A stretch of DNA of 64,000 nucleotides from the NCBI GenBank assembly GCA_050084515.1, contig CM114271.1:39680001-39744000 (forward strand). Reading direction: 5' to 3'. A program made the position numbers and the translations under genes. Every line of letters starts with the position of its first letter. Within the stretch, counting starts at the first letter, position 1. Below, one piece after another: positions 21,150-60,214 of this stretch. The DNA is from Blasia pusilla. Its lineage: Eukaryota. The notes under the pieces are model-generated. The model was not told the origin of the DNA and did no database searches. It worked only from the letters and a program-made list of their open reading frames with translations.

Positions 21150-22564
21150 AAGTAGACATAGTCTCCCTGATGAAACCTTGAGATCATTGGTGGAAAACTA
21201 CCACTACGAATAGTCGTATATCTCAAAGTATATCAATATTGCGCAATCGAAAAGTTCTCAAACGCCATGGGCATAACTATCTAAAACAAATTGGCCCTCC
21301 AAGAACATGCTCGCATCCATACATCAAAGTCATCGAGGTTCAACACCTCATAAACATCACAGCCGTAGATAAAGTACGCTCTCGGCCATAAAGCAACAAA
21401 TACGGTGAGAAAGACATTAAGGATGTTTGTATGTTGAATCTATATCCCATTGCTAACCACGATAACTATAGGTCCCAATCTCCTAGGTGACCTCTTTGCA
21501 AGCCATACTTATGTAAACCTCTTTTCATAATCTAAACGACTCTCTCTAGTAGTCCATCTGTTTCAGCCTCTCAAGATGATCTCGCGAAGGACTGCGGTGG
21601 TCAATCAACACCTGATAAGACAAGGCTTGAAACTTCCCATAAAAATCCATACTGTCAACACCTCAAAGTGGTGCGCCATAATAACTCGGCACTTGATCTA
21701 GGAAGGCATATGCTACTCCCTTATATACTTTGTTTGGAAATGCAACGAACTCTATCCACTTCCAGAAGTATTCGATCATCACCAACACATAATAACTATG
21801 ATGATCCATCAAAGATAAAGGTCTTGCAAAATCGAAACTTCATCTATAGCCTAAACCTATGATTGGTAATGGATGCAACTGTGGAGTCGGAGCATTGAAT
21901 GATGCCCGCACCAGATCACACATCATGCATCTCAAATAAACTGTTGAACATGAGTCTACATGTCTCGCCACCAATACTATATTTGGAGCAATTTTTACGT
22001 CGCTTTACTCCAAAGTGACCTTACCTCCTTGTGGACATGTTGCATCAAACATACTCTCTACGAAGGATGAGGCACAACGCGTACTCTACCATCCTCCAAA
22101 ACTCGTAACACATGCATCATTTCCCACCAAAACCATCTGACTCGCTGTAGGATCCAATCCTGCTCTCTAGCATCCACTATATAGTATGCTCATAACGTTC
22201 TCAATATGCAAGTACTCCAAGATTACTCCATCCTCCTTGATATCTCAGCCACTCGTCACCTCCTTATTGGCCTCTCGATCTAAGGGCTCTCCATCAGACC
22301 TTACCATCAAAGTCTAACCACTCTGCCTCTCAATAGTCAACAAGCCCAGATAGGTTAATGCATGTTATCTAGGCACTCTCCTTATCACTCTCTCTATCCC
22401 ATCCAGCTAACCCTCATCCGATGTTGCGATCCTTATAAAGTTATAATTGGCCTACCATGAAAGTGGAAAATATGCTCGTAAATCCACATTTACCCCATCC
22501 AAAAATATTACATGGCCGATCCATACACAAACATGATATGCACTCGATATGCACTCGTCACCAC

Positions 22565-23081
22565 TGTCACGGCTTTTAGGATAGATCGGTGAGATCTAGT
22601 GGAGCGCCTTTGTGAGTAGTGGAGGACAGGCTCAGTAGGTCGATGATGACCTATTGAGGCCCCGGGAAACCAGAGAGAGCAAGTTTCCCCTTCGTTTCGG
22701 CTCATTTGGAGTCATATTGAAGAACTTACTATTTTAGGTAATTACCATTTTGAGTATATGATCAATTGAATATTTTTGGTAAGTGGCCCTTGACCTCCTA
22801 CATCAGGTCAAGAGCCAAGGAGGTGACTTGGGAGCATAGGTTACCATGGAGAGAGCTTGGGAGAGGGGAGGGGTATACCTCAAGGAGAGAGAGCTTGAGA
22901 GCTCATTCTTTCTTTGTTGAACCTCTTGGTATGAGGCGGTGGAGCTATGGTCTTGCTTGCCTTGTGTGTGTAATCCAAGCCTCTCATTAGGAGAGTGGGT
23001 TTGGTTTGACATTAAGAGAGATATGTGAGAGTGCACACATGTGAGAACTATGGTGGGGTGAGAGAGATTGGATCTCATTTT
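22565..23081 (+). repeat. 5' B repeat of element Y (no A segment follows it)
   Basis: Aligns with 20506-21021 up to gatctcatttt. The solo unit then continues into A, whereas Y continues into the PBS-like acaaagagagaaagag. Confidence 0.85.
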
Positions 23082-26000
23082 ACAAAGAGAGAAAGAGTGA
23101 GTGAGAGAGCTTCATGGGGGAGTTCACTGGTCACTCGCTGGTTTTGCAGGTTGGGGATCGTATTCCCCGTTCAGCAGTTCATGGGAGTGCTCACCGGAGC
23201 AAGAGCCGCTTATTTGTGATGGTTCTTTTGCCGATTTTTTGTGTGGAAGAGTGGCGCGCAGAAGCGCTGCCTAATTTTTATAGGGATTGAGTATGGGGGT
23301 AGGTTTCCCCATCCCGTGCTCTCGAGAGCACTATGTAACTTGCTCATTTGTATTTTCACAGGTTTTACATCTTCGTTGGGTGAAATCAGCGCGAAAGCGC
23401 AGCCAAATTTTGTGTAGGAGAAAGAGACATTGGGCTTTACGACAGTCCCCGTCAGTTTTTACTCAAAATTTCTGATTTCAAATATTTTTGACGCCATCGT
23501 AGATCGTGAAGCTATACATGCCGTGCAAAAAAAATGCACAATTTGGAGTTGCGAGAAAAAAATTATGGTCAATCTTGCAAAATTGCCATTGTTAGGCGAT
23601 TTTTAGGCTACGTCGCCCAGTGCCGCACCCCATTCTCGAGTGTCGTGCGTTTCGTGCCGCAAATGCCACACCGAAGTGCTGGACCTGCACCGCACATCTA
23701 GGAGGTTTGAGCAGCATCAGTACGAGAGGAGTATGACTTGCTGATTGGAGGAGTTATCTTCCCGACCGAGTTGGGGTCGAGATTTGCAGTTGCCGAGGAG
23801 CGACATCGACATTTGTGTCAGGTTACCCATTCTGGTCTCTTACCCTACACGTGTGAGGGATTTTCGGGTATTAAGAAGTTATTTGGGATATTGGGTTTCG
23901 TGTTGATGCTAGGAGTATCGATGATGTATAGGTTTAGGCGACATAAACCTATGTGGGATGTCCAGAGTTTAGGATGGTTTGTCGATGAGACGATAGATCA
24001 ATTGATTTGCCGCACCACGCTGCTTATTTCCGCATAGCACACGTCTCAGTAAGAGAATGTAGATTGAGTGCCGCATATTTAGTTTGAGTGATTGAGGGAT
24101 TACTCGCGAGATTGAGAGTGATCTTGTGAGAGGGGCACGAGGGCCATCACGGCGTCCTTTCAGGATTTTGAGAGGCGAGGTAGTGGACCTGAGAATAGCT
24201 TTGGAGGGTTTACCAGGAGTGGTGCGAGGTTTCGAGGGTCTCCACATGTGAGAGACCACCTCGATCTCCTTCTTTGTCATTTTTAAAAAGGGGGGAGCGT
24301 GTAGAGGAGTGTGTTAGTGATCCAACGTACACATTGAGTGGTCCTACCAGTTGGGCGTACGAGATGGACGATCGGGATAGAGGACGCGTAGGTTTTTGGG
24401 TGTTGTATGCACTGTAGAGCTACATGACTTCATTGCGGAGTTTAGGAGTTGGTGTGACTCACAGCGGGCAAGGAACTCTAGAGAGTTTAACCCGTTTACA
24501 CCATGGAACGATATGTTCCAGTATTTAGAGGGGGCGCCCACGGACGATGCCCAGGATCGAGATTGAGGCATGGCAACTCTACTATGACCCACACTTTGTG
24601 TCATGGACGGAGCCATTTCCAGATGAGGAGAAGGAGTCAGGAGAGGCTACTTCCTCTTCCACTAGTGATATTTTAGGAGGAGTCACTCGCACTGAAGCAG
24701 TTGCATCGTCTAGTTAGGTTCGTCCCAGGTTCAACCCAATGGTTGAGTTCTTTGCTGAGTTGAGGGCGAGCTACCAAGGGGTACGAACGGAGAAGTTTCG
24801 GAGCATCCATGAATTCTAGAGGCGCTCGGGTGAGAGTTTGCGTGAGGCTTACACTCGCTTGCGCCGGTTGATCAATGTCACTTAGGGGATGACAGAGGCT
24901 CAGGCTATCCAGTCATGGTACGGGATGCTAGATCGGACCCTGCGGACACGGGTGCGGGAGGGGGTGCTCCTTATGAACACCTCCCCTACGTTGAGAGATG
25001 TTTTTAGGACCGCCGAGAACATTGAGCGGAACATGGCGGAGGAGAGCATAGCCACCATGGGTTCTAGGCGAGAGCAATCACGATTGTCTGCACCACCAGT
25101 ACAGCAACGTGGACTCTTAGATAGGTCGACTGTGGCACCACGAGCTCAAGGAGGATACTAGGAGGCCGTGCCATAAAGACCTGCGCCTTCATATGCGGCT
25201 TAGCAGTAGCCGCCTACGATTACTTGTTGGTCATATGGTGGAGCCCATCATCAACGCGACTCCACTCGTCAGGGTTACGGACATGTGTCTTAGCATGGAG
25301 GAGGAGATGGTGCTGCACCATGAGGTTATCAGTGTGACTATTTTTAGAGGTATGATCATACACGCGCCAAGTGTTTCAATTTACACCTTGAGTTACATCC
25401 GGACCAAGGGCCAAAGAGGGCACAAGAGCGAGTAGCCGGTCCGGGTGGGCTAGAGATCGTGCACCAAGTGGTCTCGTTGGGAGACAAGGAGCTGGAGTTG
25501 CCCGACAAGATGGTAGAGGTGCCCGTGGAGGAGGTAGAGTCCCACCACCTAGACGCATTGAGGGAGACGCCAAGCGTGAGGCTGGGATGGTTGCTCAGAT
25601 ACAGTAGCTACAAGACTAGATTGTCGCTATGGCATTGAGGTTACCCGATGCCGGATTCGTGGCATCGACATCATATGGAGCAGCCAGAGATATGGAGGAT
25701 CCTAGTTGGATGTGCGGGGTTGCCCAGATGGAGGCCGCCGCAATTGTGACACATAGAGTAGCCGCAAAGTTGGATCCACAGCGAGGGAAAGCCAGGAAAC
25801 AGTCCAGGCTTCCTCAGTCTTTCACGTTGTCCAAGGTGATCAGGACCCACCCTGATCACAGTTCTTGGAAAGTTGGTGATGTTGTTGGTGTGCAGGCATG
25901 GAGGGCAATGGGAGAAGCAAGTGCGACGACTCCTATGGCTGATGCTCAGGAGTGGCATGTGTCAAGCACATTGTTGGGGGCTGCCATCGTTGTGAATCGC

Positions 26001-26989
26001 GCTCCTTTATTTTCTGCTTCGATGTTATGACATTGGGAGGTACATCCGTCGAGATTTTTTGGTTGGCCGCTACCCTATATGAGCGTGGAGTTGGAGTTCT
26101 TGCATCATGTTCACATGTGATTGTAGAGGAGGTGATGGACCTGCCCTTGGAGCGGATGCTCGGGCCGTCCACGTCATATTCATGGCAGGCTGCGGTTGCT
26201 AGGATGGCGGAGATGCCCGCTAGACCCGCGATAGAGCGTGCCATGGCTTCTCCTGTTGTTGTGTTGTTGGATAACCGGGGAGAGGTCTTCTAGTTGGTGA
26301 GTCACGGAAGTAGAGATTTTAGTCCGCAACGCGTCTTGTTGGATTCAAGAGCGCAACCCCTGATATTGGGGAACGCGTCATTCAGAGGATTGGGCTTGAC
26401 GAGAGCCGATGTGGAGCGTTGTCCATTCCGGATATAGACATCCTTGGGTGGAGCGAATACCACACAGTATATCATCTGACAAGAAGTCGTGATGAGGATT
26501 CGCCCAAGACATCCTACAGATGAGTCTGTGGTGCGAGCCAAAGCGATATTGACTAATGCAAAGTCCCATGACGTCTTGGTTGGTGGAGCAGTGTTATACC
26601 CGATGGGGTTTTCCCTGGATTACTGGGAGGAGTCAGCGTCCTACAAACCAGGATGGTAGTTAGGCGATGGGCGCTTTAGCTCATTACCCATTCGATTCAT
26701 AGATGCAGTGATCGAGCGACGGCCAGGAGAGATGGCGACCTTAGTAGCATTTAGCAATGCAATTACTTGGCCTGGTGATTTGAATGAGGGACATGTCCAT
26801 GCAGAGGATACTCCCGTTCCTGACATTTCTATGGAGAGGAGTGTCATGGTAGCTGCATCATTCCATGGAGGAGAGGTGCCGCTTTTGGGCTTGACTGAGG
26901 AGCTCCGACGCTTAGCCACTGACCATGTGCAGACCACGTCACTATAGTGTGACGGGTCAGAGGAACCCTAGGTATGCAGGAGTGATGCT

Positions 26990-28000
26990 ATGACCCCTTT
27001 GGACACCATCCCAATTGTGTGGTGCATCCCAAAGGAGGATATTCGGGTGTTGGATCTCTTTAGGGGGATTAGCATTGGGTTAGTTGTTGTTTTGGACGTT
27101 GGAGTGCGCGTGCAGCAGTACTTGTATGTGGAGATTGATGATGTTGCAAGGCGCGCTTCACTTCACCATGTGGCGTTGTTATGCCTCCGTTTTCCTGACT
27201 TATTGTCTGCATCCGCCATTTAGGATTACCAGAGTTCTCTACCAAGGGATATTTTATTTTTGGGGGCGCGAGACTTGGAGCGGGTAGGGACCATAGACTT
27301 AGTCATTGCTTGTTGGCCATGCCGGGGCCAATTGAGTGTTGGATGAGGTAGCGGGTTAGTTGACACTTGGTCCAGGTTTTTTTGGGAGATGATGCGGATC
27401 TTGCGACATTTACATGAGCATCAACCTCGTTCTCCAGCATACATTTTGAAGAATGTGCCAATTTTGGGCGATTCGAGGTCGCGCGTGATGACGAGTGCAC
27501 ATCAGGTGCGTGCATAGATCGGCCCGGAATGTTGTTAGATGCGGTGAGTGTAGGTTCTAGAGCACACCGCCCGCGTCTTTGGTGGTCCAACTTGGTACCA
27601 CATGAGGTGTTGCGGAGGGCTTATGCGAGAGTAGAGCGTCCCTCTGATTTGTTGGTGGATTCTATATTGGATCCGGGCCGTCAATCACATGCAGTGAGGC
27701 ACGATGACTGTGATCAACAGGATTGGCATGCCACGAGCAGCCTTTCCCACATTGGTGAGTTTTCCCGCTTCCTATGCATTCAAGGAGGCCGGACCTGGCT
27801 TGGTTTGGGATTACCAGATACAGAGGTTGATGGAGCCCAACGCTAATGAGCGAGAGCGACCGATGGGATTCCCCACAGGAGTAATGGCAATATCGTCACT
27901 ATAGGAGATATCACGACGTCATGTCTTGGGTCAAGCGATGGACTTGAACTGCTTAACATGGATTTTCAGCTTAGAAGTAGCTGAGCAACATCGTTTGAGG
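26990..28000 (+). pseudogene. DNMT3-like C5 cytosine methyltransferase domain of element Y (disrupted)
   Basis: Motif I VLDLFRGISIG, motif IV DLVIACWPCRG (Cys codon 27320-27322), motif VI YILKNVP, motif VIII GSRAHRPRLWWSNL, motif IX EPNANERERPMGFP, motif X LGQAMDLNCL. Confidence 0.85.
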
Positions 28001-28010
28001 ATGCGACAGA

Positions 28011-28148
28011 TGTCGTGCGCATACATATCGCTACACAACATACATCGCTCGTCACATCTACACCACACAACACCGATCTTCCCCACACACGGGTTGATCC
28101 ACACATGTACAAAAATCAACTCATACATATACATGGAGATCACACAAC
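28011..28148 (-). repeat. Terminal A repeat of Z (138 bp)
   Basis: Near-identical to 28630-28767; on the sense strand it ends ...GCGCACGACA at the TSD. Confidence 0.92.
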
Positions 28149-28627
28149 AAAAATAAAGAGTAGTAAAAACGGCACACCCGGCCTAAAACTCCACTCCTCA
28201 ATCTACATCGGCATATCGAGCCTCGTCCACCCTGTGCTATCAAGGAATCCGGACGTTAGCACCCTAGTCCTAGCTCACACACATACAAGGGAGGCGCTCC
28301 AATGGCCCAACATGAGAAAGATGGCTTAGAAAGCCATCTTCCTCTCTTATATAGGGTTGGGAAGAGCCAAAAGGCTCTTCCCCTAAAAATAGTCCTTCCC
28401 TTGGTAACCTGCGCGCACAAGTGACCAGGGGCGGGTGACCTGGTCAACAAGTCACCCGGCTGTAAAAGACCTCAATATGACATTTGTCAGGAACGACGTT
28501 CCTGACACAATGGACCTATCCTCAACCTCATCCGACACCGTGGGACAAAGTTACACTCAAGATAGTCCGCTGGCTCCTACGCCCTATCCACGATAGATCT
28601 CGGCCTATCGGCTACTCAGATGTGACA
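28149..28627 (-). repeat. 3' B repeat of Z
   Basis: Highly similar to 36998-37480 apart from a few indels. Confidence 0.92.
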
Positions 28628-28629
28628 AT

Positions 28630-28767
28630 TGTCGTGCACATACATATCGCTACACAACATACATCGCTCGTCACATCTACACTACACAACACCGATCTTC
28701 CCCAAACATGGGTCGATCCACACATGTACAAAAATCAACTCATACATATATATGGAGATCACACAAC
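28630..28767 (-). repeat. Internal A repeat of Z, joined to B by a 2-nt spacer (CA-AT-TG junction)
   Basis: Direct repeat of 28011-28148; the junction tgtgaca-at-tgtcgtg lies at 28621-28636. Confidence 0.92.
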
Positions 28768-28777
28768 CGCCCCCCTA
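28768..28777 (-). promoter_or_regulatory. Polypurine-tract-like plus-strand primer site of Z
   Basis: Sense TAGGGGGGCG immediately precedes the internal A. Equivalent motifs precede A in X (TAGGGGGTCG, 19979-19988) and Y (TAGGGAGGCA, 41003-41012). Confidence 0.7.
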
Positions 28778-28843
28778 GCTGGTAGTTGGATCCCCCCAAC
28801 TCCAGATAGAAAATATCACATCTCTCTCACATGACCTACTACT

Positions 28844-28990
28844 CTATACACATCTCGGACACATCCATCGTCTCGTGGGAACCACATCAAGAGGGGGGGT
28901 CAGACATGACATATGCCACCCTCGAGAACAACCATCACATACCAACATGGTGGCTGCACCCCTCGCAGATCCGCACAACATACACCTCAA
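28844..28990 (-). pseudogene. PHD finger at the C-terminus of the Z polyprotein (after integrase)
   Basis: [45 protein letters not shown] has C4HC3 PHD spacing. Confidence 0.9.
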
Positions 28991-29276
28991 GCCTGCAAGT
29001 ACCACTGCCAAGATCGGATCCACCGTCCCATCTACGCTCGGAAGATGACATGGTGCACAATTGCGCATATGATCCTTCCAAACCATACCATCCCGTCCCT
29101 CCAACATGAGGACTCCGGTCGGTAATACCTCGCGCACATGTAGGATCGTGCACCCTGCAGTGACATCTAGCGTCGTGGGTGCCGCCTGCTGTAAATACAC
29201 GTAATCTCCAGGATGAAACCTCCTAATCCCTGGACGATAACCTCCTCCACGAATGGTCGCGTACCTCAATGTATCT

Positions 29277-31782
29277 CTATCTTTGGGCAATAGCTAAGTT
29301 CTCAAAGGCCATAGGCATAACTCTACGAAAAACTTCTGCCCTCTGAGAACATGCTTGTACCCACACATCTGGATCATCAAGATCTAACACCTCCGCCATG
29401 TCACGTCGAATCGCTGCACGTAAATCTGGCTCTCTCCCAAAGAGCAAAAAGTACGGTGAAAATGACGCCAAGGATGCTTGCCGACTAAAGCGATAACCCA
29501 TAGCCAACCATGGCAATTATAGGTCCCACTCCCTCAACTGTCCCCGCTACAAGCCATACTTGCGCAATCCTCTCTTCACCGTCTGTACCACTCTCTCCGC
29601 CAACCCATCCGCCTCAGGATGATCTCTGGATGTGGTGCGGTGATCTATCAGCGCCTGATCACACAAGGCCTAAAATCTCCCCTGAACTCGATACCTTGGT
29701 TAGTCAACACCTCCGCCGGTGCACCAAAGTGACTAAGCACACGATCTAGAAACGCATAAGTTGTTCCCTCACTCGCCTTGTCTGGTAGTGGCACCAACTC
29801 TATCCACTTGGAGAAATGCTCCACCATGACCAACACGTACCTATGATGACGCCCCGTCAATGGCAAAGGTCCTGCAAAGTCTAAACTCCACCGATAACCT
29901 AAACCCATAATCGGCAAAGGATGTAACTACGGAGTGGGACCATTGAAGGATGCTCGCACTCTGTCACATACCATACATCTAGCCACAAACTGCTGTACCC
30001 CAGTATGCATGTCGCGCCACCAATACTGAACCTCGAGCAAGTTGTAAGTACGCTTTACTCCGAAATGTCCCAACTCCTCATGGGCATGTCGCACTACACG
30101 TCCTCGCTGGGACGGATGAGGTACCACTCGTATCCTACCATCTCCCCATACCCGCAAAATGTGAACCCCTCCCACCTGAACCTCTTGGCTCTCTGTAGGA
30201 TCCGATCCCGCTCCCTAGCACTAACTGTACTCGCAATGACGCCAGTGCGCAAGAACTCCACAACCTCCACGTCGTCATGGATATCACCTGTCGCCTCCTC
30301 ACTAACCTCCGGATCCAAAGACTCATCATCCAACCCCACCACTGGAGTCATCACCTGTGGCTGACCTGCCATAGTCAACCAACAAAGATAGGCAGATGCA
30401 TGCCAACCGGGCACCATCTCCTCATCACTCTCTCCGTGCCATCGAGCTCATATGTCATCTCTCTGACTTGGACATGGGTTACGACTCAACCCATCCGCAT
30501 CCTGGTTCAGCCGACATGGCCTATGAACCACCTCAAACTCATACTCCTGTAGTAATAGAGCCCACCTGGAAAGCTTGCCCGTAAGCTTGTCGGACTCCAT
30601 CAACCATCTCAACGGCTGATGATCAGTGATAAGTGTGAAAGGGTTGCCGAATAAATAGCACCTAAAATGTGCCACGGCCCACACTGCAGCCAAGCACTCT
30701 CCCTTGTAGGAGCTGTACTTTGCCTCTGCAATGTTGTTCGATCGGCTCGCGTAAGCCACAACAAACTCCCTCTCCTCGTCATCCCTCTGAGTAAGCACTG
30801 CTCCTAGACCCAACATACTCCAATCCGTATGTAACTGGAATGGGCGACCCCTAACCAGTCTCTGTAAAATGGGTGAGGACGTCAATCTGTCCTTGAGCTC
30901 CTGAAATGCTCGCTCTTGATCATCTCCCCACAACCACACCTGATCAAGTCTCGTCAACAAGGTCAAAGACTTTGCGATCGCACTAAAACCCTTGACATAC
31001 GTCGATAGAAGTTCTTGACCCAAGAAATGCTCGGACTCGACTCACATCAGAGGGCGTGGAATCTGCGCAATAGCCTCTACCTTTGTCTGCTGAATGCCTA
31101 ACCCACTCGGGTATATGGTGTGTCCCAAGTACTCAATCTGCTCTGAAAGAATGCACTTGCCTGGATGTAACTTCAGTCCATGTAACTGCAATCGCCGAAA
31201 CACCTCCTCCAAGTGTCGCTCATGCTCCTCAACTGTGGAACTGAAGATAAGAATATCATCTATGTAACATCGTACAAAATCCAAACCAGCCAGAATCCTA
31301 TCCATCACTCTCTGAAACTCTGCAGGCGCGTTCTTCAACCCAAATGGTAAGAACCGCCACTGATACAAGCAATCTATCCCCCATAATGTTGTCTTCTCCT
31401 TGTCCTCCAACCTGATAGGAAGCTGATGATAGCCAGCACGGAGATCTAAAGTACTGAAGATCTTTGCATGCCCTATTGCATCAAAGATCTCTTCAAGAGT
31501 AAGCATGGCGTACCGATCTGACCTCGTCTTTCGGTTGATAGGACGGTAATCTCCATACATCCGCCTATCCGTCCAATTGCCATACATATCCTTCTTCGTC
31601 GGCATGATTGTAGCAGATGCATACTCCCCATGTGATAACTCCACAAGTCCTGCCTCCAACAAGTCCTGACATTTGCTCTGAATCAAGGCTCGCTCCATTT
31701 CAGAAATACAGAGGGTCGATTTAAAGATCAGCGTATCACTAGCCAACTCAATCCGTATCCCGGACCCTTCAAGCGTACCCAA
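29277..31782 (-). pseudogene. RT, RNase H and DDE integrase domains of Z (frameshifted)
   Basis: STLDLRAGYHQL, LPFGLKNAPAEFQR, YIDD; FQLHTDWS, ITDHQPL, DADGLSR; HAHEELGHFG...CMVC, WSLDFAGP. The RT-RH-IN order indicates Ty3/Gypsy. Confidence 0.93.
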
Positions 31783-32189
31783 GTCTCTCTCATATCAAGG
31801 CAAAACAACCGACATGCCCTCTCAGAAACCTATGAAATCGCCGTCGCTCTCCTCCTATCAACTTGAGACCTATCACAGGCTCCCAAGTCTCCATCGTGAC
31901 CTCACTCGGACAGGACGCAACCTACGGCTTTGGTTGCTATGTAGCAACCCTAGCCACCTCCGCAAGAGCCACTCCACTCTGACCTCCTACACCATGCTCC
32001 ACATCCGAAAAATGAACATGTGCTACTCTAGCCGCCGCACGCACTCTCGCTCGAACGACGTCCCAGAAGTCCATGGGTGCCTATCTCTCCTCGTCTCGCC
32101 CCTAGCCAATGCCTGTACAGACCCTATAGGCAATGGTCCAACTCGTGGACGTGACGGCATGGATGACACTCGCATCCGTCTCTGCTCAG

Positions 32190-33196
32190 CCATACCTAGG
32201 CTGACTATCCATGTGAGATAGTTGAGGTCCATCGCCTGCCCCAACACCTGTCTCCGTAATGCCTTAGTCATCCCTGGCACCGCCGTAGTACCGGGAGTGA
32301 ACCCCATGGCGCGCTCGCGCTCATCTGCTGTAGGCTCTTCCAATGCTCCAGTCACCTCATCCCAAATCATGCTTGGCCCTCCCTGACGAAAGGCATGGGA
32401 TGCTGGGAAGCTCACCAACGTAGGTAAGGCTGCCCTCAACTCCCCCACCCTATTGGCCATGGCCAACGGTGGTCTATCATCCCGTGTCACCACCTGAGAT
32501 CGACACCGTGAGCCCAAAATAGCATCCACTGTGAGATGTGGTGCTCTCTGGACTCCACCGTATGCTCGACTCAGTACCTCTGATGGTATCAGGTTTGTCC
32601 ACCACAGTCGTGGACGATGGGCACGTGACCCAACTCTCGCTGCATCTAACAACACAGTAGGTCCCAACCAGGACCTCACCTGATGTACACTCGTCATCAC
32701 ACGTGCACGAGTGTCTCCCAACAACGGCACGTTCTCCAAAATGTACGTTGGAGAACATATCTGACTCTCTTGCAAGTGTCGTGCTACTTGCAGCATCTCC
32801 CAAAACATCCCTGACCTCGGATCCTGCAATCCAAATCCTCGGCCAACTGATGAATGACCCTAACATGGCCATCCAGAAATCACCAATGCCAACTCTATCC
32901 AGATCCTACGCCCCCACCATAGAGATGTGGGCGGGTAGTGTATGCTGGTATCCCCGTACTGCAGATACCGATAATAACTCAGGATACCTCTGGACCAATC
33001 TCGCCACGTGACGTAATGATACTCGCCGTGCGATCCCATCTCTCTCCAGATAAAGGTACTGATGCACCCGTATGCCCGCCTGCAATAGTGCAGCCAATCC
33101 GGTGCTAATCCCTCCGAAGAGATCTAACACCCTAACACCCTCCTTTGGGCACTGCCACACAACAGGTGTGGTATCTAGTGGGGTCATCGTCTCCAC
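32190..33196 (-). pseudogene. DNMT3-like C5 cytosine methyltransferase domain of Z, between protease and RT (disrupted)
   Basis: Motif I VLDLFGGISTG, motif II YLYLE, motif IV ISGWPC*GHS (Cys 32865-32863, next codon TAG), motif VI YILENVP, motif VIII GSRAHRPRLWWTNL, motif IX EPTADERERAMGF, motif X LGQAMDLNYL. These motifs resemble DNMT3 (VLSLFDGIATG, AAHRARYFWGNL). Confidence 0.9.
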
Positions 33197-36100
33197 TCCA
33201 AGAGCCTGATCGCAACGTGACTATCGCTGCTCTGGGATAAAAACATGACTCCACGCCTGCCTCACGAGGTCGTCGGCACTCCTATGTAGCTCTCGAGTCC
33301 TACCCCATAATGGTGAAGAGGCATCGCCAACATGGGAAGAGACACCCGCCATGGCCTGTCTCTCCGTGGGACTATCCGCTACTAGGACATCCTTTGCATG
33401 TGCGTTCCCCTCCAACAACTCTCTTGGCCATCTAACACTACCTGTGAAAGCCGCCAACGTGGTCACAGACTCGCCTCGTGATCGACCACCTCGTCCCGCA
33501 AATTGCACGGGTAACTGACTCATCCGGTCGTCACCTGACCGATAAGCAACGGTCTCCTCCCAGAAGTCAAGGATGAATCCTAGGGGATATAACACTGTAC
33601 TCCCCACCAACACATCGTACGACTCAGCTGGTGTCGTAATCGCACGTGTGCGCACCATAGCACTATCCGTCGCATGCTCTGGCTGAACTCTGACAACAAT
33701 CTCCTGTCGAGTCATATACTGAGTGGGTGATACGCCCCCAATCGAGGTCTGTATCTAGAAGGGACAAGGCTCAATGTCGGCCTTCCGTAACCCCAACGCT
33801 AAACACGCCACCTTCCCTAACATCAAGGGTTGCGATCCCGAATCAAGAAGGACGCGCTGCGGGTGGTATACTGTCCCCGTCGGACTAACTAAGCGAAATA
33901 CTCTAGCTCGGTTATCCAGTAACACTACTCCATGTGTCACCACTGCTCGCTCTATGGCCGGTCGAGCTGGCATATCTACCAACTTCGTCACCGCCGCATG
34001 CCATGACTCTGTGGGGAACGTCCCAAGCACCGGCTCTGAGGGCAAGTCCACCACCTCCTCAACTACCTCTGAACAAGAAGCAGTCATCTCTCCACGCTCA
34101 CACAACGTGGTGGCCAACCGGAACACCTCAGCTGGTCCAACTCCCAACGTCGCCAACTCTATGGCGGAAAATAGCGGAGTGTGACTCACTCTAGTGGCCA
34201 CCTCCAACACTATGGTCGGCACTGACTCCACTCGAGCCGGCATAGGAGTTGTCACTCCAACTCCTCGTAACGTTGACGTAGGTGCCTGAACTGTAGGCAC
34301 CGCTGGTCGTCGAGGCAACATCGATGGTGTGTGTAGTGCCTCCGATAATGTGAACGACTGTGGAACCCTGGCCTGCCGCCCATCGGTCCCCTCTGGTGGG
34401 TCAATCTCAACTCCACCTCTCGATGGCTCGGTGCCTCTCGCAGCACCCCGAGTCACCACTGCAGCTGCCTCAACCTGGGCTGCACTACACATAAATCCCA
34501 TACTGGAGAGATCCTCACTCAGGTCAGGGTAGGAGGTAGAAACTGGTGTCACACTAGCTGCATCATCGTCATGGCAGCAATCCTCTGCTCCAACTGATTG
34601 ATGCGTGAGAGAAGTGCCGGCTCTGGTGCTCCTGCTCCATCTCCTCTGGCTGGTGGTGGTCCTCTACCACCACGTCCACGAAGAACTCCCGGACCTCCTC
34701 CAGGACGACCGGCCCCAGGCTCTCGGCCTACCTCTAGACGTGCCCCTCGGCGAAGGTCAAAACATCTATCCCTAGTGTGACCATATCTGTGGCAATGGTC
34801 ACACTGGTGCTGTGGTGGGGCCATCCTCTGTGGCTCTTGAGCAATTGGAGGCGCTGGTGGTCCTCTCCCATGCTGTGGGCAGTCTCTCTGCCTATGGGCC
34901 CTCCACACGTCCAACAAGACCACATCGGTCCCTGCTGGGCAACATATGTAGGTGCGGGTTGTTGCCTCATAGGCTCACGGTACCCACCCTGCTCTCTAGG
35001 CACATTGGCCCGCTCCCGTGGTACTGGTACTCGTTGTGGCACCTGTGGGGTCACCGTCGCTCGTGGACCCGTCGACTCTCGAGAAAATCCAGCGGTCACT
35101 ACCTGCTCCTCACTCATGTTGAGCTCAATACGCTCACACAACTCAAAGACCACCTTCAATGTAGGCTTCGTTGTGTGAATCAGTACCGCATCTCCGACTC
35201 TCCTCCGTAGTTCTCACCCGAACCCGACCAACATCGGGTCGATCGCGCCTCGATCACTCCAAACGTAGCAATGATCGGCCTCCTCATGCGTGTGAATGCC
35301 TCTCTCGACTCTCACCCGATCGTCGCTGAAAATCTCAGAGACTCTTCACTTGTCAGACGCACGCCCTGGTAGCTCTTCCCCAACCGCCGGAAGAACTCCC
35401 TTTGTGGGGCTGAAGCTAGGTGGCCCTCTACCACCAGAGGTCTCTGCCACATCGCATGTCTCACTGCCCTCCTCTCCATCTAGTCTCCGTGCTGATGGTG
35501 TGGGTCTCTCTCCTCTCACAATCCCATCATATGCCTCGCGACCACTAGTGGACACATACCCTGGAGCCCAATACATCCTCCAAGCATCGATCTCTACTGA
35601 ATAGAGTGATCGAAACTCCATGTAGTCATCCATCGGAGGACCCTCCAAGTGATGGAACAACCCCTTCCATGCCATGAAAGGGTTGAACCGTGTTAGGGTC
35701 CGTATCTCCTGGAAGTCGCACCATGTGTCAAACTCCTGGATGAAATCATCTAAGTCGATGGTGCCCACTGCACCCGAGAAACGACGCATGCCCCGATGGC
35801 CCATGTCGTCCATCTTGCCAAGTACTACTGTCTCTGTCGGTGATCTCGTCACCAGACCCAGTGTCCACTGATGACGATCCAGTCACGGATGGATGTCTAG
35901 GGAGCTTCTTACTGGTAACCCCTCGGTATCTCACTCCACTCCGTGTCACACCACTACCACCACTCGCACTACCCCGTTCTTCTGAACCCTGGAAGAACGC
36001 CGTGATGACAAACCCTGTCTCACCCACTCAAGCACTCAGACTCACCGAGAGTCTCCCACACGCCTCACTAACTCACCTATGCTAACATCAATCCCGTGAT

Positions 36101-36983
36101 GACATACCCGGCCTCACGCACGCTCAACACTCGGGCTCACCATGAGCCTCCCAACTGACTCATCTAACCTAGCGACACTCTCTTGGGTCATACACGCGAC
36201 CCTACTTGGCAACCGCCGTATATCCACCAACATGCTACACATGAAAAGAATCTACACTCGTCACCATCATTGCACCCATCTAGCACCAACTACTACCCGA
36301 TACCGAGCACTCTCAATCACACACGACAAGTGCGGGAAAAGGGACTCGAATGGTAACCTCATCACGCCCTCCAACCTGCTGCACCGTCAACATGCACTCC
36401 TCCACATGAGATGACAATCTCTGCAACATAACACTCCCCTTGACCAACATGTCGATCCTCCCGTCAACAGATGCGAACAACCCGTCGGCATCATGCACAC
36501 TGCCCCTCCATCGTCAACTCTCGCAACCCCCTGTCGCGCCCCAAAACATCATGTCGCGCAACCCTCTCTGTCGATCCCCACACGCGGCATGTAACGTGAC
36601 TCACCTTGGTCGGCTCCCAATCATGTCCGGCAAATCTCAACTCGCGCCCGTCCAACGCCCGTTGCCGCCGCGCCCTAACCCTAGACCGGCCGCTTTACTT
36701 GACAGCCCCCTGGCGGCTGCAAGCTCTAACTCTTCTCCCTGGGTACTCCCGACATTCCACGAGCTATAAGACGATGTTACTCCTGCCGACACAACTGCGC
36801 TACACCTGCCTTTGTCCCCATCAATCCGCACCAAAGCAAAATCGAGAAAACGGACAGCGCTTCGCCCACGGCCTTCGAACAGAAAAATGACACACTAAAC
36901 GTCACACACACGTCTCCGGGGCTCCCGACCAAGGCAACTCGCTTGCCTACACCGCAAACAACTTAATTCCCACCATCCCCCGA

Positions 36984-36997
36984 CATCTTTCTCATGT
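36984..36997 (-). promoter_or_regulatory. Primer-binding site of Z, complementary to its own predicted transcript 5' end (self-priming type)
   Basis: catctttctcatgt (36984-36997) directly abuts B and is a perfect 14-nt inverted repeat of 37179-37192. That segment lies about 32 nt downstream of a TATATAA (37223-37217). No TGG-starting tRNA PBS is present. Confidence 0.72.
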
Positions 36998-37480
36998 AAA
37001 AATAAAGAGTAGTAAAACGGCACACCCGGCCTAAAACTCCACTCCTCAATCTACATCGGCATATCAAGCCTCATCCACCCTGTGCTATCAATCAAGGAAT
37101 CGTGTGTGTGACGTTTAGCACCCTAGAAAAATGACACACTAGCTCACACACATACAAGGGAGGTGCTCCAACGGCCCAACATGAGAAAGATGGCTTAGGA
37201 AAGCCATCTTCCTCTCTTATATAGGGTTGGGAAGAGCCAAAAGGCTCTTCCCCTAAAAAAAGCCCTTCCCTTGGTAACCTGCACGCACAAGTTACCAGGG
37301 GCGGGTGACATGGTCAACAAGTCACCCGGCTATAAAAGACCTCAACATGACAACCTGACACAATGGACCTATCCTCAACCTCATCCGACACCGTGGGACA
37401 AAGTTACACTCAAGATAGTCCGTTGGCTCCTACGCCCTATCCACGATAGATCTTGGCCTATCGGCTACTCATATGTGACA
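36998..37480 (-). repeat. 5' B repeat of Z, containing a TATA box and the predicted transcription start
   Basis: Matches 28149-28627; sense start TGTCACA; TATATAA at 37223-37217. Confidence 0.92.
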
Positions 37481-40400
37481 CAGATCACAAAAGTTGCGTT
37501 GGTGAGCCCCATACCTACCGAGACGGTTGAGGCACTGGCTGAGGATGAGACCCGAGGACATCGACACACCAGGGGTGATCGGGAGAGACACCCTTGAACT
37601 TCTTGGGATGTTTTGCAAGTACGCCAAGAGATGATAGGCACAGCATCGAGCATGGTTCTGGGTACTACACGTGGAGATGAGAGTTCTATTGTCTAAGACG
37701 GGTTGCACCATAGCAACCACCGACATCCGCGCCGGAGAGTCCTACCGTAGTCACGATGGAGACTTGGGAGCCAGATATGGGCCCTAAGTTGAGAAGAGAA
37801 GAGTGGCCTTGGAGTTACAGGAGTTATACACCAATTCCTTAGGAGTTATAGGAGCTATTTTTCATTTAGTATGCATGATTTAGGTACACTAAAGGGTCCA
37901 AGGATCCGCATTGAGTTTTTGAGTGACACGCCGATCTTCCGATGACCCTACAGGTACAGTGACATGGAGAGGGCTCTGATTCAGAGTAGGAGCCAAGACT
38001 TGGTTGGAGCAGGACTAGTGGAGATGTCGCATGGAGAGTATGCATTTGCCATTGTCATGCCCGCCAAGAAGGATGTGCATGGCAATTGGATGGATATGCG
38101 GATGTGTGGAGATTACCGACCTATCAATCGGCAGACGAAGTCCAATAGGTATGCCATGCCCATACCTGAGGAGATCTTTGATGCGATTGGGCATGCAAAG
38201 GTCTTCAGTTTATTGGATTTGCGAGCCGGATACCATCAGCTGCCTATCAGATTGGAGGGCATGGAGAAGACGGCATTGTGGGGCATCGATCCTCACCGGA
38301 AGGATTATTTGTACCAGTGGCGGTTCTTACCATTCGGGCTAAAGAACGCCCCGGCTGAGTTTCAAAGGGTCATGAATAGGATCTTCGCAGATCTTGATTT
38401 TGCTAGGTGTTATATCGATGACATCGTAGTCTTTAGCGCCATGGTTGAGGAGCAGGACCGACATCTAGAAGAGGTGTTTCGACGATTGCAGTTACATGGG
38501 CTGAAGCTACATCTAGGCAAAAGCAAGTTCTTCTACGACCAGATTGAGTACCAGGGTCATATGATATACCTAGGGGACGAAGGTAGAGGCTATTTCACGC
38601 ATTCCATGCCCTACAAATGTGAGTCGAGTTCATGCATTCATGAGATTGGCGAACTTCTATCAACGATACATCAAGAGTTTCAGTTCGATTGCGAAGCCGC
38701 TAACCTTCATGACCAAGGTGGATCAAGAGTGGCACTGGGGGGATGAGTAGGAGAGAGCATTTTATATGCTCAAGGATAAATTGACGTCCGCGCCCATATT
38801 GAGGAGACCGATCAAGGGGCGTCCTTTCCAGTTGCATACCAATTGGAGCATGTTGGGGCTTGGAGCCGTGCTCATCCAACATGACCATGATGGTAGAGAG
38901 TTCGTGGTGGCTTACTCTAGTCATTCGAACAACACTGCAGAGGCAAAGTATAGCTCGTATGAGGGTGAGTGCTTGGCTGCAGTGTGGGATGTTACACATT
39001 TGAGTTGTTATCTATTCGGCAATCCTTTTACCATCATTATTGATCATCATCCACTTAAATGGTTGATGGAGTCCGAAAAGCTTATAGGGAAGCTTGCGAG
39101 GTGGACTCTTTTGTTTCTGGAGTATGACTTCCATGTGGGGCATAGATTTGGGACACTCAATCGGGATGTAGATGGTTTGAGTCGTAACCCATGCTCGAGT
39201 CAACGAGATGCGACTGGAGCTCATTGGCATGGTGAGAGTGATGAGGAGTTGGAGCCACGATGCCATGCGTTAGCCTATTTGGGCTTATTGGCTATGGAGA
39301 GCCAGATTTTTGAGACTTTGATGGCGAGGTCTGATGGAGAGTCTTTAGATCCAGAGGCCGGTGAGGAGCCGACATGTGGCCGAGACATTCACGATGATGG
39401 AGTGGTCTTGGTATACCTACGTGCTAGCAGAGTCGCGAGCAGAGTCGCGAGCACAATGGGTGCTAGAGAGCGGGATCGGATCCTATAGCGAACCAGATGG
39501 TTCCGGTGGGAGGGCACACATGTGTTGCGAGTGTGGGAGGATGGTAGAGTGCATGTAGTGCCTCATCCTTCGCAGAGAGCATGTTTGGTGCATCATGCCC
39601 ACGAGGAGTTGGGTCATTTTGGAATGAAGCGGACGTACAACTTGCTCCAGATTCAGTATTGGTGGCGAGGCATGCAAACTGACGTTCAGCAATTTGTTGC
39701 CAGATGCATGGTGTGTGATTGAGTCTGAGCATCGTTCAATGTTCCAAATCCATAGTTTCTTCCATTTTCCATCATGGATTTAGGTTATAGATGGAGTTTG
39801 GATTTTGCAGGACCTTTGCCTTTGACGGAGCACCACATTGGTTATGTGTTGGTGATGGTCGAGCACTTCTCGAAGTGGATAGAGTTGGTTGCATTGCCTG
39901 ATAAAGTGAGTGAGGGAGTAGCATATGCCTTCCTAGATCGAGTATTGAGTCATTACGTCATACCAGCTGAGGTGTTGACAGACCAGGGTACAAAGTTCCA
40001 TGGGGAGTTTCAGGCCTTGTGTGACTAGGCACTAATCGACCACCGTACTACTTCGCGAGATCATCCTAAGGTGGATGGCCTAGCGGAACGGGTTGTGCAG
40101 ACGGTGAAGAGAGGACTATGCAAGTATGGCTTGTAGAGAGGTCACCTAGGAGACCTTCAGTTGCCGTGGTTGACGATGGGATACAGATTCACCATGCAAG
40201 GCATTCTTAGCGTCTTTCTCACCGTACTTGTTGCTTTATGGCTCAGAGCCAGATTTACCTGTAGCCATTTGTCGAGATGTTGGTGAGTTGTTGAACCTTC
40301 ATGACCTTGATGTATGGATGCGAACATGTTTGCAAAGGGCTAAGTTATTTCGGAGAGTGATGCCTATGGCGTTTGAGAACTTGGCGATTGCCCAACATCG

Positions 40401-60038: not shown

Positions 60039-60214
60039 CGTCTGCAACGCGTTTCTTTCACCACTTCTCTCCTCTTGTTCCTCCTCCTGCTCCTCGAGGT
60101 TCACATTTCTTATTGTAATTCGTCCCTTTCACGCGTCCTCCTCGCCTTCTAGTCTCTGCGTCGTGTTGTGCTCTGCTCCACTTCACTACTGCTTTGTTGC
60201 TGTCGGGATTTACC

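What the first reader, a model, noticed from the sequence alone, without database searches (positions are those of the whole stretch)
32190..33196. DNMT3-like cytosine methyltransferase embedded in the retrotransposon polyprotein, in three related elements
Seen in the sequence: C5-MTase motifs I, II, IV (PC), VI (ENV), VIII, IX and X lie in order between protease and RT in Z. The same domain occupies the same position in Y (26990-28000) and X (41216-41680 plus 22500-22564), so it is a fixed family domain and not a one-off capture. Established knowledge: DNMT-carrying retrotransposons have been reported in dinoflagellates and charophyte algae, and non-flowering land plants retain DNMT3. Inference: a land-plant Gypsy lineage encodes its own de novo methyltransferase, perhaps methylating its cDNA or circle inside the particle, or its insertion site. 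All three copies here are disrupted.
Basis: partly seen in the sequence, partly recalled or inferred. Interest (0 to 1): 0.85.

Follow-up and report, generated by a model that had tools for sequence, protein, structure and literature searches.

The report
Methyltransferase-carrying retrotransposons, three nested dead copies
Three broken, nested copies of a plant jumping gene each carry their own DNMT3-type DNA methyltransferase, and the same element family, first described in an alga, also lives in liverworts and peat mosses.

Summary
Z (28011-37480, minus strand), Y (22565-41215, plus strand, split by Z) and X (minus strand, split by Y) are related Ty3/Gypsy-like elements. Each has a C5-cytosine methyltransferase (MT) domain between protease and reverse transcriptase. 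All three copies are dead.

- **DNMT3-like:** Pfam DNA_methylase is above threshold. Human DNMT3A/B/C are the best solved relatives by sequence (profile E 1e-24) and by fold (E 1e-16).
- **Fixed and constrained:** pN 0.31 against pS 0.72 between Z and Y. The catalytic Cys is kept in 52 of 54 full domains from public proteins.
- **Land plants:** named relatives are liverworts (Marchantia, Calypogeia, Riccia) and Sphagnum, plus the algae Closterium and Klebsormidium.

This is the lineage published as KnitGypsy-Dnmt3 (de Mendoza 2018), so it is a new member of a known kind.

New details:
- MT ends ORF1 (gag-PR-MT), and a conserved in-frame stop precedes RT-RH-IN-PHD.
- The integrase ends in a PHD finger, not a chromodomain.
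- Terminal repeats are split (A1-internal-B1-A2-B2), with 4-5 bp target duplications.
- A sister clade has MT between RNase H and integrase.

Methylation of the element's own cDNA is inferred, not shown.

The parts
28011..37480 (-). Element Z, whole. In its own sense it reads A1, gag, PR, MT, RT, RH, IN, PHD, B1, A2, B2. Termini are TGTCAC...GACA.
   Evidence: Domain map by Pfam and tblastn. Repeats and junctions. The flanking duplication CAGA lies at 28007-28010 and 37481-37484 (or the 5-bp reading CAGAT).
32170..33181 (-). Z DNMT3-like C5-methyltransferase domain, motifs I to X. It is broken by a TAG at 32906-32908, a frameshift near 32882-32890 and a TAG at 32860-32862.
31987..32025 (-). 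Two in-frame stops in the Z MT-to-RT linker, TAG at 32023-32025 and TAG at 31987-31989. The second lies at the position homologous to Y's TAA at 37694-37696 (...SMV* in Z, ...SIV* in Y). It is the likely family-typical end of ORF1.
   Evidence: compared with the conserved stop in related loci
33224..34663 (-). Z protease region, with the active-site motif LLDSGSQ.
   Evidence: ORF translations. Relatives P0021, P0025 and P0027 carry Pfam aspartic-protease families. No Pfam hit for the Z piece itself.
34551..35882 (-). Z gag, with a CCHC zinc knuckle.
   Evidence: Translations, homology to Y gag. Relatives are named 'CCHC-type'.
30451..31794 (-). Z reverse transcriptase (31045-31794) and RNase H (30451-31041).
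   Evidence: Pfam RVT_1 E 3e-29 and RT_RNaseH E 3e-35
28847..30214 (-). Z integrase (H2C2 zinc finger and rve core) with a C-terminal PHD finger (about 28847-28990). No chromodomain.
   Evidence: Pfam Integrase_H2C2 E 1e-16, rve E 3e-10, PHD E 4e-11. PHD relatives in PDB.
36998..37480 (-). Z repeat A1, at the element's 5' end.
   Evidence: Matches A2 with 19 mismatches plus gaps over 501 columns
28011..28767 (-). Z 3' block, on the + strand B2 28011-28148, A2 28149-28627, the dinucleotide AT, then B1 28630-28767. The B1/A2 junction reads like the two element ends joined (...GACA AT TGTC...). A purine run AGGGGGG lies just upstream of B1 in Z's sense.
   Evidence: B1 against B2 has 9 mismatches in 149
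22565..41215 (+). Element Y, split by Z. It holds gag 24387-25242, PR 25665-26932, MT 26996-28000, then Z, then RT 37877-38569, RH 38667-39209, IN 39513-40398 and PHD 40387-40829. The flanking duplication CCAC lies at 22561-22564 and 41216-41219.
41216..41717 (-). Element X, the N-terminal half of its MT domain (motifs I to VI, with stops). It is cut by the Y insertion after motif VI.
20162..22564 (-). Element X, continued. About 20 MT codons lie at 22564-22500, then a large deletion removes RT and RH. Integrase follows at 22117-21239, and PHD at 21229-20162. The PHD region is interrupted at about 20506-21148 by a repeat-like fragment.

Best explanation
**What it is (confidence about 0.95).** The feature is a real DNMT3-type C5-cytosine methyltransferase domain. 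It is an integral, selected part of a streptophyte Ty3/Gypsy-like retrotransposon lineage, the one first described as KnitGypsy-Dnmt3 in Klebsormidium. The window holds three diverged members nested in each other (Z in Y in X), all inactivated.

**Anatomy shown here.**
- The order is gag, protease, MT, in-frame stop, RT, RNase H, DDE integrase, PHD finger.
- The terminal repeats are split direct repeats (A1-internal-B1-A2-B2).
- Target-site duplications are 4-5 bp.

**How it most likely works (inferred, about 0.4).**
- ORF1 gives Gag-PR-MT in bulk.
- Occasional read-through of the stop adds RT-RH-IN-PHD.
- MT is therefore made and packaged in Gag-like amounts.
- It methylates the newly made double-stranded cDNA, probably at CG, before or during integration, so a new copy enters the genome already methylated.
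- The PHD finger on the integrase steers insertion towards chromatin with unmodified H3K4, such as older copies of the element.
For: **Identity.**
- Pfam PF00145 is above threshold for Z and for six of seven relatives scanned (28.8-35.6 bits).
- The family profile A1 against PDB gives DNMT3A 1e-24, DNMT3B 5e-22, DRM 1.6e-14 and M.HhaI 6e-7.
- The AlphaFold model of relative P0046 has pLDDT 76.9 and pTM 0.79.
- Every row printed by Foldseek for that model is DNMT3A/B/C, with E down to 1.3e-16 and TM by target 0.40-0.83 (0.74-0.83 for catalytic-domain chains).

**Constraint.**
- Z against Y over 308 MT codons gives pN 0.307 and pS 0.717. That is like protease (0.32/0.70) and gag (0.32/0.74), and looser than RT (0.13/0.66).
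- In 54 near-full MT domains out of 101 public proteins, Cys of PC is kept in 52, Glu of ENV in 54, and the two Arg in 51 and 52.

**In the polyprotein.**
- Single ORFs carry MT with the other domains: P0043 MT-RT-RH-IN-PHD, P0003 gag-PR-MT, P0032 RT-RH-MT-IN-PHD.
- Locus L032 has ORF1 gag-PR-MT (1369 aa), one TAG, then ORF2 RT-RH-IN-PHD (1047 aa), all in one frame.
- The same stop position is found in 18 of 18 same-frame loci of the L001-L030/L051 clade, 18 of 22 loci examined.

**Link to the known family.**
- K. nitens KFL_000540020 (P0097) matches at E 7e-33. Its MT runs straight into RT, and it sits inside the family tree.
- Split repeats occur in Z, L029, L036 and L040. The paper says KnitGypsy-Dnmt3 has DIRS-like repeats.

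**Land plants.** Named hits come from Marchantia, Calypogeia, Riccia and Sphagnum.

**Transcription.** About 900-1000 RNA reads per run from the same species label lie on Z at 90% identity or more. They are strongly strand-biased, and depth over MT/PR/gag is 1-6.

**PHD.** The best PDB relatives are PHF12, CHD4, KDM5A/B PHD1, DPF3, PHF21A, ATXR5 and AIRE. I recall most of these as readers of unmodified H3K4.
Against: - **No activity data.** No catalytic activity is shown for any member. The KnitGypsy-Dnmt3 domain gave no methylation in yeast, which the authors call inconclusive because human DNMT3B also failed (passages read).
- **Untested steps.** Methylation of cDNA, packaging, protease cleavage around MT, stop read-through and PHD specificity are all inferred.
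- **Saturated dS.** pS is about 0.7, so dN/dS values are rough. The codon sets come from alignable HSPs only.
- **Non-independent loci.** The 18 loci that share the stop are close relatives from a few metagenomes, so they count as few independent events. The stop context is not uniform: TAG CAA CCC, TAG CAG TTA, and TAG GAG in Z.
- **A clade without the stop.** Nine loci have a continuous MT-RT frame.
- **RNA reads.** They are mostly 90-95% identical to Z, so they come from other copies. The library's strand protocol is assumed.
- **No outgroup.** No host DNMT3 or DRM sequence could be put in the tree, so 'DNMT3-derived' rests on similarity ranking and fold, not on phylogeny.
Confidence: 0.75

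Rival explanations
1. The domain is a working methyltransferase but acts on RNA. It would place m5C on the element's genomic RNA or on a tRNA primer, as DNMT2-type enzymes do, rather than on DNA.
For: The catalytic motifs would be conserved either way. KnitGypsy-Dnmt3 gave no DNA methylation in yeast, and the authors raise RNA methylation for the LINE-borne DNMT. MT is co-translated with Gag, which binds the RNA.
Against: Similarity is far stronger to the DNA enzymes DNMT3A/B (1e-24) than to DNMT2 (about 5e-6). The fold search lists only DNMT3 chains in its printed rows. The related SymbioDIRS-Dnmt3 domains methylate CG in DNA in yeast.
Confidence: 0.12
2. The enzyme acts in trans on host chromatin rather than on the element's own cDNA. 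It could methylate the insertion site and its neighbourhood, or other loci. That could bury the new copy in heterochromatin as self-limitation, or interfere with host or rival-element regulation.
For: ORF1 placement means more MT protein than RT or IN. The PHD-tailed integrase suggests engagement with chromatin. Insertions in this window fall into older copies of the same family: Y into X, Z into Y, and a repeat fragment into X.
Against: There is no evidence of nuclear free MT. No methylome data were examined here. The K. nitens methylome is reported as not unusual. Three nested events in one window do not establish targeting.
Confidence: 0.2
3. The MT domain no longer catalyses anything. It is kept as a structural, DNA-binding or protein-binding module of the Gag-PR-MT precursor, as DNMT3L is for DNMT3A.
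For: No activity has been shown for this family, and the yeast test was negative though inconclusive. pN in MT (0.31) is about twice that of RT or IN.
Against: The catalytic Cys, the ENV Glu and both Arg are kept in 51-54 of 54 domains, across clades that share only 31-50% identity. An inactive scaffold would be expected to lose them, as DNMT3L did (recalled).
Confidence: 0.1
4. It is not part of the elements at all. It would be fragments of a host DNMT3 gene or pseudogene into which transposons inserted, or a one-off transduction.
For: Bryophytes do keep a host DNMT3 (passages read). All three copies here are broken.
Against: The position between PR and RT is the same in three elements that differ by 41-59% at the protein level. 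It is contiguous with gag-PR or RT in single ORFs from many genomes. There are no PWWP, ADD or other host DNMT3 companion domains. The copies are flanked by the elements' own repeats and target duplications.
Confidence: 0.01

Closest known systems
KnitGypsy-Dnmt3 of Klebsormidium nitens (de Mendoza et al. 2018, PMC5890265; passages read, figures and supplements not seen)
   Same: Both have a Dnmt3-type, non-rearranged MT domain inside the coding region of a Gypsy-type element. In both, the domain composition is Gypsy but the repeat structure is DIRS-like. Both show purifying selection on MT. A K. nitens protein (P0097) matches the family at E 7e-33, has MT directly upstream of RT, and falls inside the family tree.
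   Different: The relatives named here are land plants (liverworts, Sphagnum), not only a charophyte alga. MT identity to the K. nitens copy is only about 31%. The paper called the capture 'independent ... in the K. nitens lineage'. Three things are not in the text I could read: the ORF1 position with a conserved stop before RT, the PHD finger on the integrase ('PHD' occurs 0 times in the main text), and the sister clade with MT between RNase H and integrase.
Host DNMT3 (animal DNMT3A/B/C; plant DNMT3)
   Same: Best sequence and fold match. The motifs I, IV, VI, VIII, IX and X are colinear, and the catalytic residues are kept.
   Different: There are no PWWP or ADD domains, and no plant companion domain. 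It is translated as part of Gag-PR-MT. It has a longer stretch between motifs VIII and IX. Identity to human DNMT3A is about 21% in the structural alignment.
SymbioDIRS-Dnmt3 and SymbioLINE-Dnmt of dinoflagellates (same paper)
   Same: These are also retrotransposon-encoded C5-MTases. The SymbioDIRS-Dnmt3 domains methylate CG de novo in yeast, which is the only activity data for this kind of element.
   Different: They belong to a different element class (tyrosine-recombinase DIRS, LINE) and a different host. The authors report them as independent captures.
Chromoviruses (Ty3/Gypsy with a chromodomain on the integrase)
   Same: Both have a chromatin-reader module at the C-terminus of a DDE integrase. 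That module is presumed to guide integration.
   Different: Its specificity is untested. PHD fingers in retrotransposons in general are already noted in the literature.
Split-direct-repeat retroelements of the DIRS order (PAT/Ngaro type; arrangement recalled, not checked in a paper)
   Same: Both have the repeat layout A1-internal-B1-A2-B2, with the B1/A2 junction looking like the joined element ends.
   Different: These elements have a DDE integrase (rve) and 4-5 bp target duplications, not a tyrosine recombinase.

Membership tests
C5 cytosine DNA methyltransferase, DNMT3 type | Pfam DNA_methylase (PF00145) above the gathering score | tested here: met
   Z read-through P0001 scores 24.8 bits against 22. 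Six of seven relatives scanned score 28.8-35.6 bits; the patchy Sphagnum model P0030 has no PF00145 hit.
C5 cytosine DNA methyltransferase, DNMT3 type | Catalytic motifs I, IV (PC), VI (ENV), VIII (RxR), IX and X in canonical, non-permuted order | tested here: met
   All are present in order in Z. They are conserved in 51-54 of 54 family domains. The match to DRM covers only part of the domain.
C5 cytosine DNA methyltransferase, DNMT3 type | Closer to DNMT3 than to DNMT1, DRM, DNMT2 or bacterial enzymes | tested here: met
   PDB by sequence gives DNMT3A 1e-24, DRM 1.6e-14, HhaI 6e-7, DNMT2 5e-6, and no DNMT1. PDB by fold lists only DNMT3A/B/C in its printed rows. This is a similarity ranking, not a phylogeny.
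C5 cytosine DNA methyltransferase, DNMT3 type | Placement inside the DNMT3 clade in a tree with host DNMT3 and DRM | not tested
   No host DNMT3 or DRM sequence was returned by the three protein searches, and no genome is held.
C5 cytosine DNA methyltransferase, DNMT3 type | Host-type companion domains (PWWP and ADD in animals, a plant-specific domain in plants) | tested here: not met
   Pfam scans show only retroelement domains around MT. It is therefore a DNMT3-like domain, not a host DNMT3 gene.
C5 cytosine DNA methyltransferase, DNMT3 type | Methyl transfer to cytosine in DNA | not testable with these tools
   The only published test of the Klebsormidium relative was negative but inconclusive.
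Ty3/Gypsy (Metaviridae-like) LTR retrotransposon | The order gag, PR, RT, RNase H, DDE integrase | tested here: met
   Pfam and tblastn maps of Z, Y and L032
Ty3/Gypsy (Metaviridae-like) LTR retrotransposon | Two identical long terminal repeats at the outer ends | tested here: not met
   Z, L029, L036 and L040 instead have A1-internal-B1-A2-B2. No B copy follows or precedes A1.
Ty3/Gypsy (Metaviridae-like) LTR retrotransposon | Short target-site duplication and TG...CA ends | tested here: met
   Z has CAGA and Y has CCAC. Both have the ends TGTCAC...GACA.
KnitGypsy-Dnmt3 lineage | Dnmt3-type domain in the coding region of a Gypsy-type element, with DIRS-like repeats | tested here: met
   compared with the paper's text and figure legend
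KnitGypsy-Dnmt3 lineage | Sequence kinship with the K. nitens copies | tested here: met
   P0097 has 31% identity over 96% of the MT query, E 7e-33. It groups with type-1 algal clades in the MT tree (quick search, SH-aLRT only).
DIRS order | Tyrosine recombinase instead of a DDE integrase, and no target duplication | tested here: not met
   rve and Integrase_H2C2 are present, and target duplications are present.
Chromovirus | Chromodomain at the integrase C-terminus | tested here: not met
   A PHD finger is there instead.

The most novel reading that the evidence does not exclude
This is one old retroelement lineage that captured a DNMT3 catalytic domain once, before or near the origin of land plants. 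It has carried the domain ever since through charophyte algae, liverworts and peat mosses.

The enzyme was moved into the Gag-side reading frame, so it is made in capsid-like amounts. It pre-methylates the element's own cDNA. A PHD-tailed integrase aims the cDNA at H3K4-unmodified chromatin.

Together these would amount to an element-encoded copy of the host's DNMT3 logic (a histone-tail reader plus a DNMT3 catalytic domain), split over two proteins. The lineage is still transcribed in a liverwort-like host. Because it is present in the model Marchantia, the purpose of a transposon-borne DNA methyltransferase would become testable by genetics.
Probability: 0.25. Interest if true: 0.8.

Novelty: new member of a known kind. 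Interest (0 to 1): 0.55.

Why it matters
DNA methylation is the host's main weapon against transposons, so a transposon that carries its own DNA methyltransferase is a paradox. It has been described in print for dinoflagellates and one charophyte alga, with no function established.

The same lineage turns out to be abundant and transcribed in bryophytes, including the transformable model Marchantia polymorpha. That moves the question into a system where knock-outs, methylomes and new-insertion assays are routine.

Three anatomical findings give concrete, testable hypotheses about when and where the enzyme acts:
- MT sits in ORF1, ahead of a conserved stop.
- The integrase carries a PHD finger.
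- The terminal repeats are split, yet the element uses a DDE integrase and makes target duplications.

There is also a practical point for annotation. Many 'DNA (cytosine-5)-methyltransferase' or 'hypothetical' gene models in Marchantia, Calypogeia, Riccia and Sphagnum are pieces of these elements, not host methylation genes.

Tried and rejected
- **Pfam on single ORF pieces.** The MT region gave no hit at E<=0.01. The domain is split by two stops and a frameshift, and the read-through with X did hit.
- **Own genome.** No genome is held, so intact copies in the same genome and the host's own DNMT3 could not be looked for.
- **Earlier scan notes.** Nothing on record.
- **Sequencing-run search.** No RNA holder listed, and organism names are coded, so the species could not be named. 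RNA runs with the same species label were laid instead.
- **Host DNMT3/DRM for an outgroup tree.** None appeared among the hits. P0100, a distant unnamed PF00145 protein, served only as a long-branch placeholder.
- **Regex motif counts.** These were too crude and were replaced by the HMM-aligned counts.
- **Close metagenome relatives L001-L030.** Those examined all have stops in the MT frame, so they could not serve as intact examples. L032 did.
- **Primer-binding site after A1.** None was recognised.
- **Repeat-like fragment in X (20506-21148).** Its ends and target duplication could not be resolved.
- **Y's own A2/B repeats.** They are mostly missing or deleted.
- **Literature.** Searches, and passages read, found no text describing these elements in bryophytes. 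Two later papers speak only of 'streptophytes' and cite the 2018 work. Figures and supplements could not be seen and may show Marchantia sequences.
- **Not run.** The search of protein representatives and complex prediction.
Full report
**What is in the window.**

ORF listing, Pfam and tblastn with Z's own protein pieces show three related retroelements nested in each other.
- Z lies on the minus strand (28011-37480). It reads gag, protease, an unassigned 1-kb stretch, RT, RNase H, H2C2-plus-rve integrase and a C-terminal PHD finger.
- Y lies on the plus strand (22565-41215) with the same order. Z cuts it right after the unassigned stretch.
- X lies on the minus strand. Y cuts it inside that same stretch, and X has lost RT and RNase H.

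Protein identity in the stretch is 45-59% between Z and Y and 41-50% between Z and X. These are three different family members, not recent duplicates. Flanking DNA holds intron-containing plant-like genes, including an EF-G-like GTPase and a bHLH protein. No genome is held for the window.

**The stretch is a C5-methyltransferase of the DNMT3 type.**

Separately, Z's ORF pieces gave no Pfam hit. A read-through with stops as X (P0001) hits PF00145 at 24.8 bits against a gathering score of 22, and it hits human DNMT3A/B in PDB.

The intact Calypogeia relative P0002 places all of motifs I to X on Z at 33181-32170, on Y at 26996-28000 and on X at 41708-41211. X continues for about 20 codons at 22564-22500.

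| Test | Result |
|---|---|
| P0002 against PDB | DNMT3A 8e-11, DRM 4e-7, HaeIII/HhaI about 1e-3 |
| 24-sequence family profile against PDB | DNMT3A 1e-24, DNMT3B 5e-22, DRM 1.6e-14, HhaI 6e-7, DNMT2 5e-6; DNMT1 absent at E<=0.01 |
| AlphaFold model of relative P0046 | pLDDT 76.9, pTM 0.79 |
| Foldseek of that model against PDB | every printed row is a DNMT3A/B/C chain; E down to 1.3e-16; TM by target 0.74-0.83 for catalytic-domain chains, lower for full-length ones |
| ESM Atlas look-up | nearest cluster Streptophyta by features, chordate DNMT3A by structure |

**State of the three copies.**
- Z's MT keeps every catalytic motif. It has a TAG at 32906-32908, a frameshift near 32882-32890 and a TAG at 32860-32862 just after GWPC.
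- Y has many stops and frameshifts, and has lost a motif I glycine and the ENV glutamate.
- X keeps the N-terminal half only.
- Z's repeat pairs differ by 19 mismatches in about 460 aligned bases (A1/A2) and 9 in 149 (B1/B2). Z is therefore not a recent insertion.

**Is the domain a selected part of the family?**

Nei-Gojobori counts on tblastn-derived codon pairs:

| Pair, region | Codons | pN | pS |
|---|---|---|---|
| Z-Y MT | 308 | 0.307 | 0.717 |
| Z-Y protease | | 0.32 | 0.70 |
| Z-Y gag | | 0.32 | 0.74 |
| Z-Y RT | | 0.13 | 0.66 |
| Z-Y integrase | | 0.15 | 0.66 |
| Z-X MT | 145 | 0.32 | 0.64 |

Synonymous sites are saturated, so the ratios are rough. Even so, replacement changes are clearly held back.

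Public proteins point the same way. Three searches returned 44, 77 and 157 relatives. Of the 101 proteins from the first two searches, 54 have a near-full MT domain in a single stretch. In those 54, the Cys of PC is kept in 52, the Glu of ENV in 54, the two Arg of motif VIII in 51 and 52, and the second Gly of motif I in 54.

**Who carries it.**

Named relatives are:
- liverworts: Marchantia polymorpha (many gene models), Calypogeia fissa, Riccia sorocarpa
- peat mosses: Sphagnum fallax, S. troendelagicum, S. jensenii, S. tenellum
- algae: Closterium and Klebsormidium nitens

.

In a quick maximum-likelihood tree of 57 MT domains, Z sits next to Calypogeia, Marchantia and unnamed relatives. 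Its best identity is 71%, to Calypogeia. The window's organism is coded in the run search.

The K. nitens protein P0097 matches at 31% identity, E 7e-33. It continues from MT straight into the start of RT, and it groups inside the family.

The published KnitGypsy-Dnmt3 is described as a Dnmt3 domain in the Pol ORF of a Gypsy element, with Ka/Ks below 0.2 and repeats 'the same as that of a DIRS retrotransposon' (passages read). This is therefore the same lineage, extended to land plants.

*ORF structure.* Metagenome locus L032 looks intact. ORF1 at 976-5082 encodes gag-PR-MT (1369 aa). A single TAG follows. ORF2 at 5086-8226 encodes RT-RH-IN-PHD (1047 aa) in the same frame.

In the clade closest to Z's relatives, 22 loci have both MT and RT matches, and 18 of them keep the two in one frame. 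All 18 have a stop at the same linker position. It is TAG in 13 and TAA in 5, followed by CAA CC(C/T).
- L031 and L032 have TAG CAG TTA, which fits the leaky UAG-CAR-YYA context that I recall from plant viruses.
- Y and Z share a stop at a homologous place (...SIV*/...SMV*).
- Many public proteins end 59-130 residues after the MT domain.
- Another clade (nine loci) has no stop.

I infer stop read-through, with MT made at the Gag level. This is not tested.

*PHD finger.* All full-length members end in a PHD finger rather than a chromodomain. Its best PDB relatives are PHF12, CHD4, KDM5A/B PHD1, DPF3, PHF21A, ATXR5 and AIRE.

*Terminal repeats.* The repeats are split. In Z's sense they read A1, internal, B1, A2, B2. 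The B1/A2 junction reads ...GACA AT TGTC..., which is the two element ends joined. The same layout occurs in L029, L036 and L040. Yet Z and Y are flanked by 4-5 bp duplications (CAGA, CCAC) and end in TGTCAC...GACA, as expected of a DDE integrase.

*A second architecture.* A second architecture, RT-RH-MT-IN-PHD, forms one clade of 13 rows with SH-aLRT 99 in the MT tree. It includes a 3329-aa single ORF in L077.

**Transcription.**

Three RNA runs carrying the same species label as the best DNA holder put 916, 1006 and 1003 reads on Z at 90% identity or more. Most are 90-95% alike, so they come from sister copies.
- Reads are strongly one-sided. If the libraries are of the usual stranded kind, the RNA is sense to Z.
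- Depth is 10-20 over RT to PHD and 1-6 over MT, PR and gag.
- The lower depth may reflect faster divergence of the 5' half, or a 3' bias.
- The DNA run shows very many matching contig pieces, so the family is high-copy.

**Mechanism.**

Shown: a conserved, constrained DNMT3-type domain co-translated with Gag and protease.

Inferred:
- packaging in particles
- methylation of the new cDNA, as de Mendoza et al. proposed for the DIRS-borne enzyme
- read-through control of the ratio of MT to RT
- PHD-guided insertion into H3K4-unmodified chromatin

The three insertions into older family members in this window fit the last idea but are too few to test it.

The only activity test of the Klebsormidium relative was negative and inconclusive.

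**Novelty.**

Eight full-text searches and passages from eight papers found no description of these elements in bryophytes. A 2025 paper and a 2026 preprint refer to 'streptophytes', citing the 2018 work. Figures and supplements were not available and may include Marchantia sequences.

I file this as a new member of a known kind, with new anatomical detail.

Noticed in passing
window 22561-22564 / 41216-41219, 28007-28010 / 37481-37484, and 20506-21148: All three insertions seen in this 22-kb cluster landed inside older members of the same family. Y went into X's MT domain. Z went into the tail of Y's MT domain, in the opposite orientation. A repeat-like fragment went into X's PHD-coding region. 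Y's target next to Z (GATGCGACAGAT) also resembles the element's own A-end (GATGTGACAATT).
   Followed up: partly
window 20506-21148: A fragment about 0.6 kb long resembles Y's 5' A repeat (81% over 536 columns) and is followed by B-like sequence. It may be a solo A-B unit left by recombination. Its ends and target duplication could not be resolved.
   Followed up: partly
window 23083-41215 (Y and Z coding strands): There is a strong strand asymmetry. The sense strand of Z and Y has G well above C (GC skew +0.19 to +0.24) and T above A. Intact L032 shows less (+0.11), and the algal-type L036 and L077 show none. CpG observed/expected is 0.68-0.78 in Z and Y against 0.34-0.55 in those loci. Unexplained.
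   Followed up: partly
L077 1865-11851; L056 7997-13117: In a sister clade the MT domain sits between RNase H and integrase. L077 carries one uninterrupted ORF of 3329 aa (RT-RH-MT-IN-PHD plus long unassigned parts). L077 also starts with an exact 824-bp tandem repeat.
   Followed up: no
window 57601-60128 (minus strand): Exons of an EF-G-like translation GTPase ([14 protein letters not shown]...), interrupted by introns. This is a host gene.
   Followed up: no
window 9942-14349 (minus strand): Exons of a bHLH transcription-factor-like gene (ERQRREEMNEKFSALRSMIP...). This is a host gene.
   Followed up: no
window 62669-63636 (minus strand): ORFs that I recall as resembling Helitron-type helicase or Helitron_like_N proteins. 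Judged by eye only.
   Followed up: no
public proteins P0003, P0006, P0009, P0010, P0020, P0030, P0050 and others: Many gene models in Marchantia, Calypogeia, Riccia and Sphagnum are pieces of these elements, though they are named 'hypothetical', 'CCHC-type', 'Reverse transcriptase' or 'DNA (cytosine-5-)-methyltransferase'. Some models appear to splice out the ORF1 stop region (P0010, P0030).
   Followed up: partly
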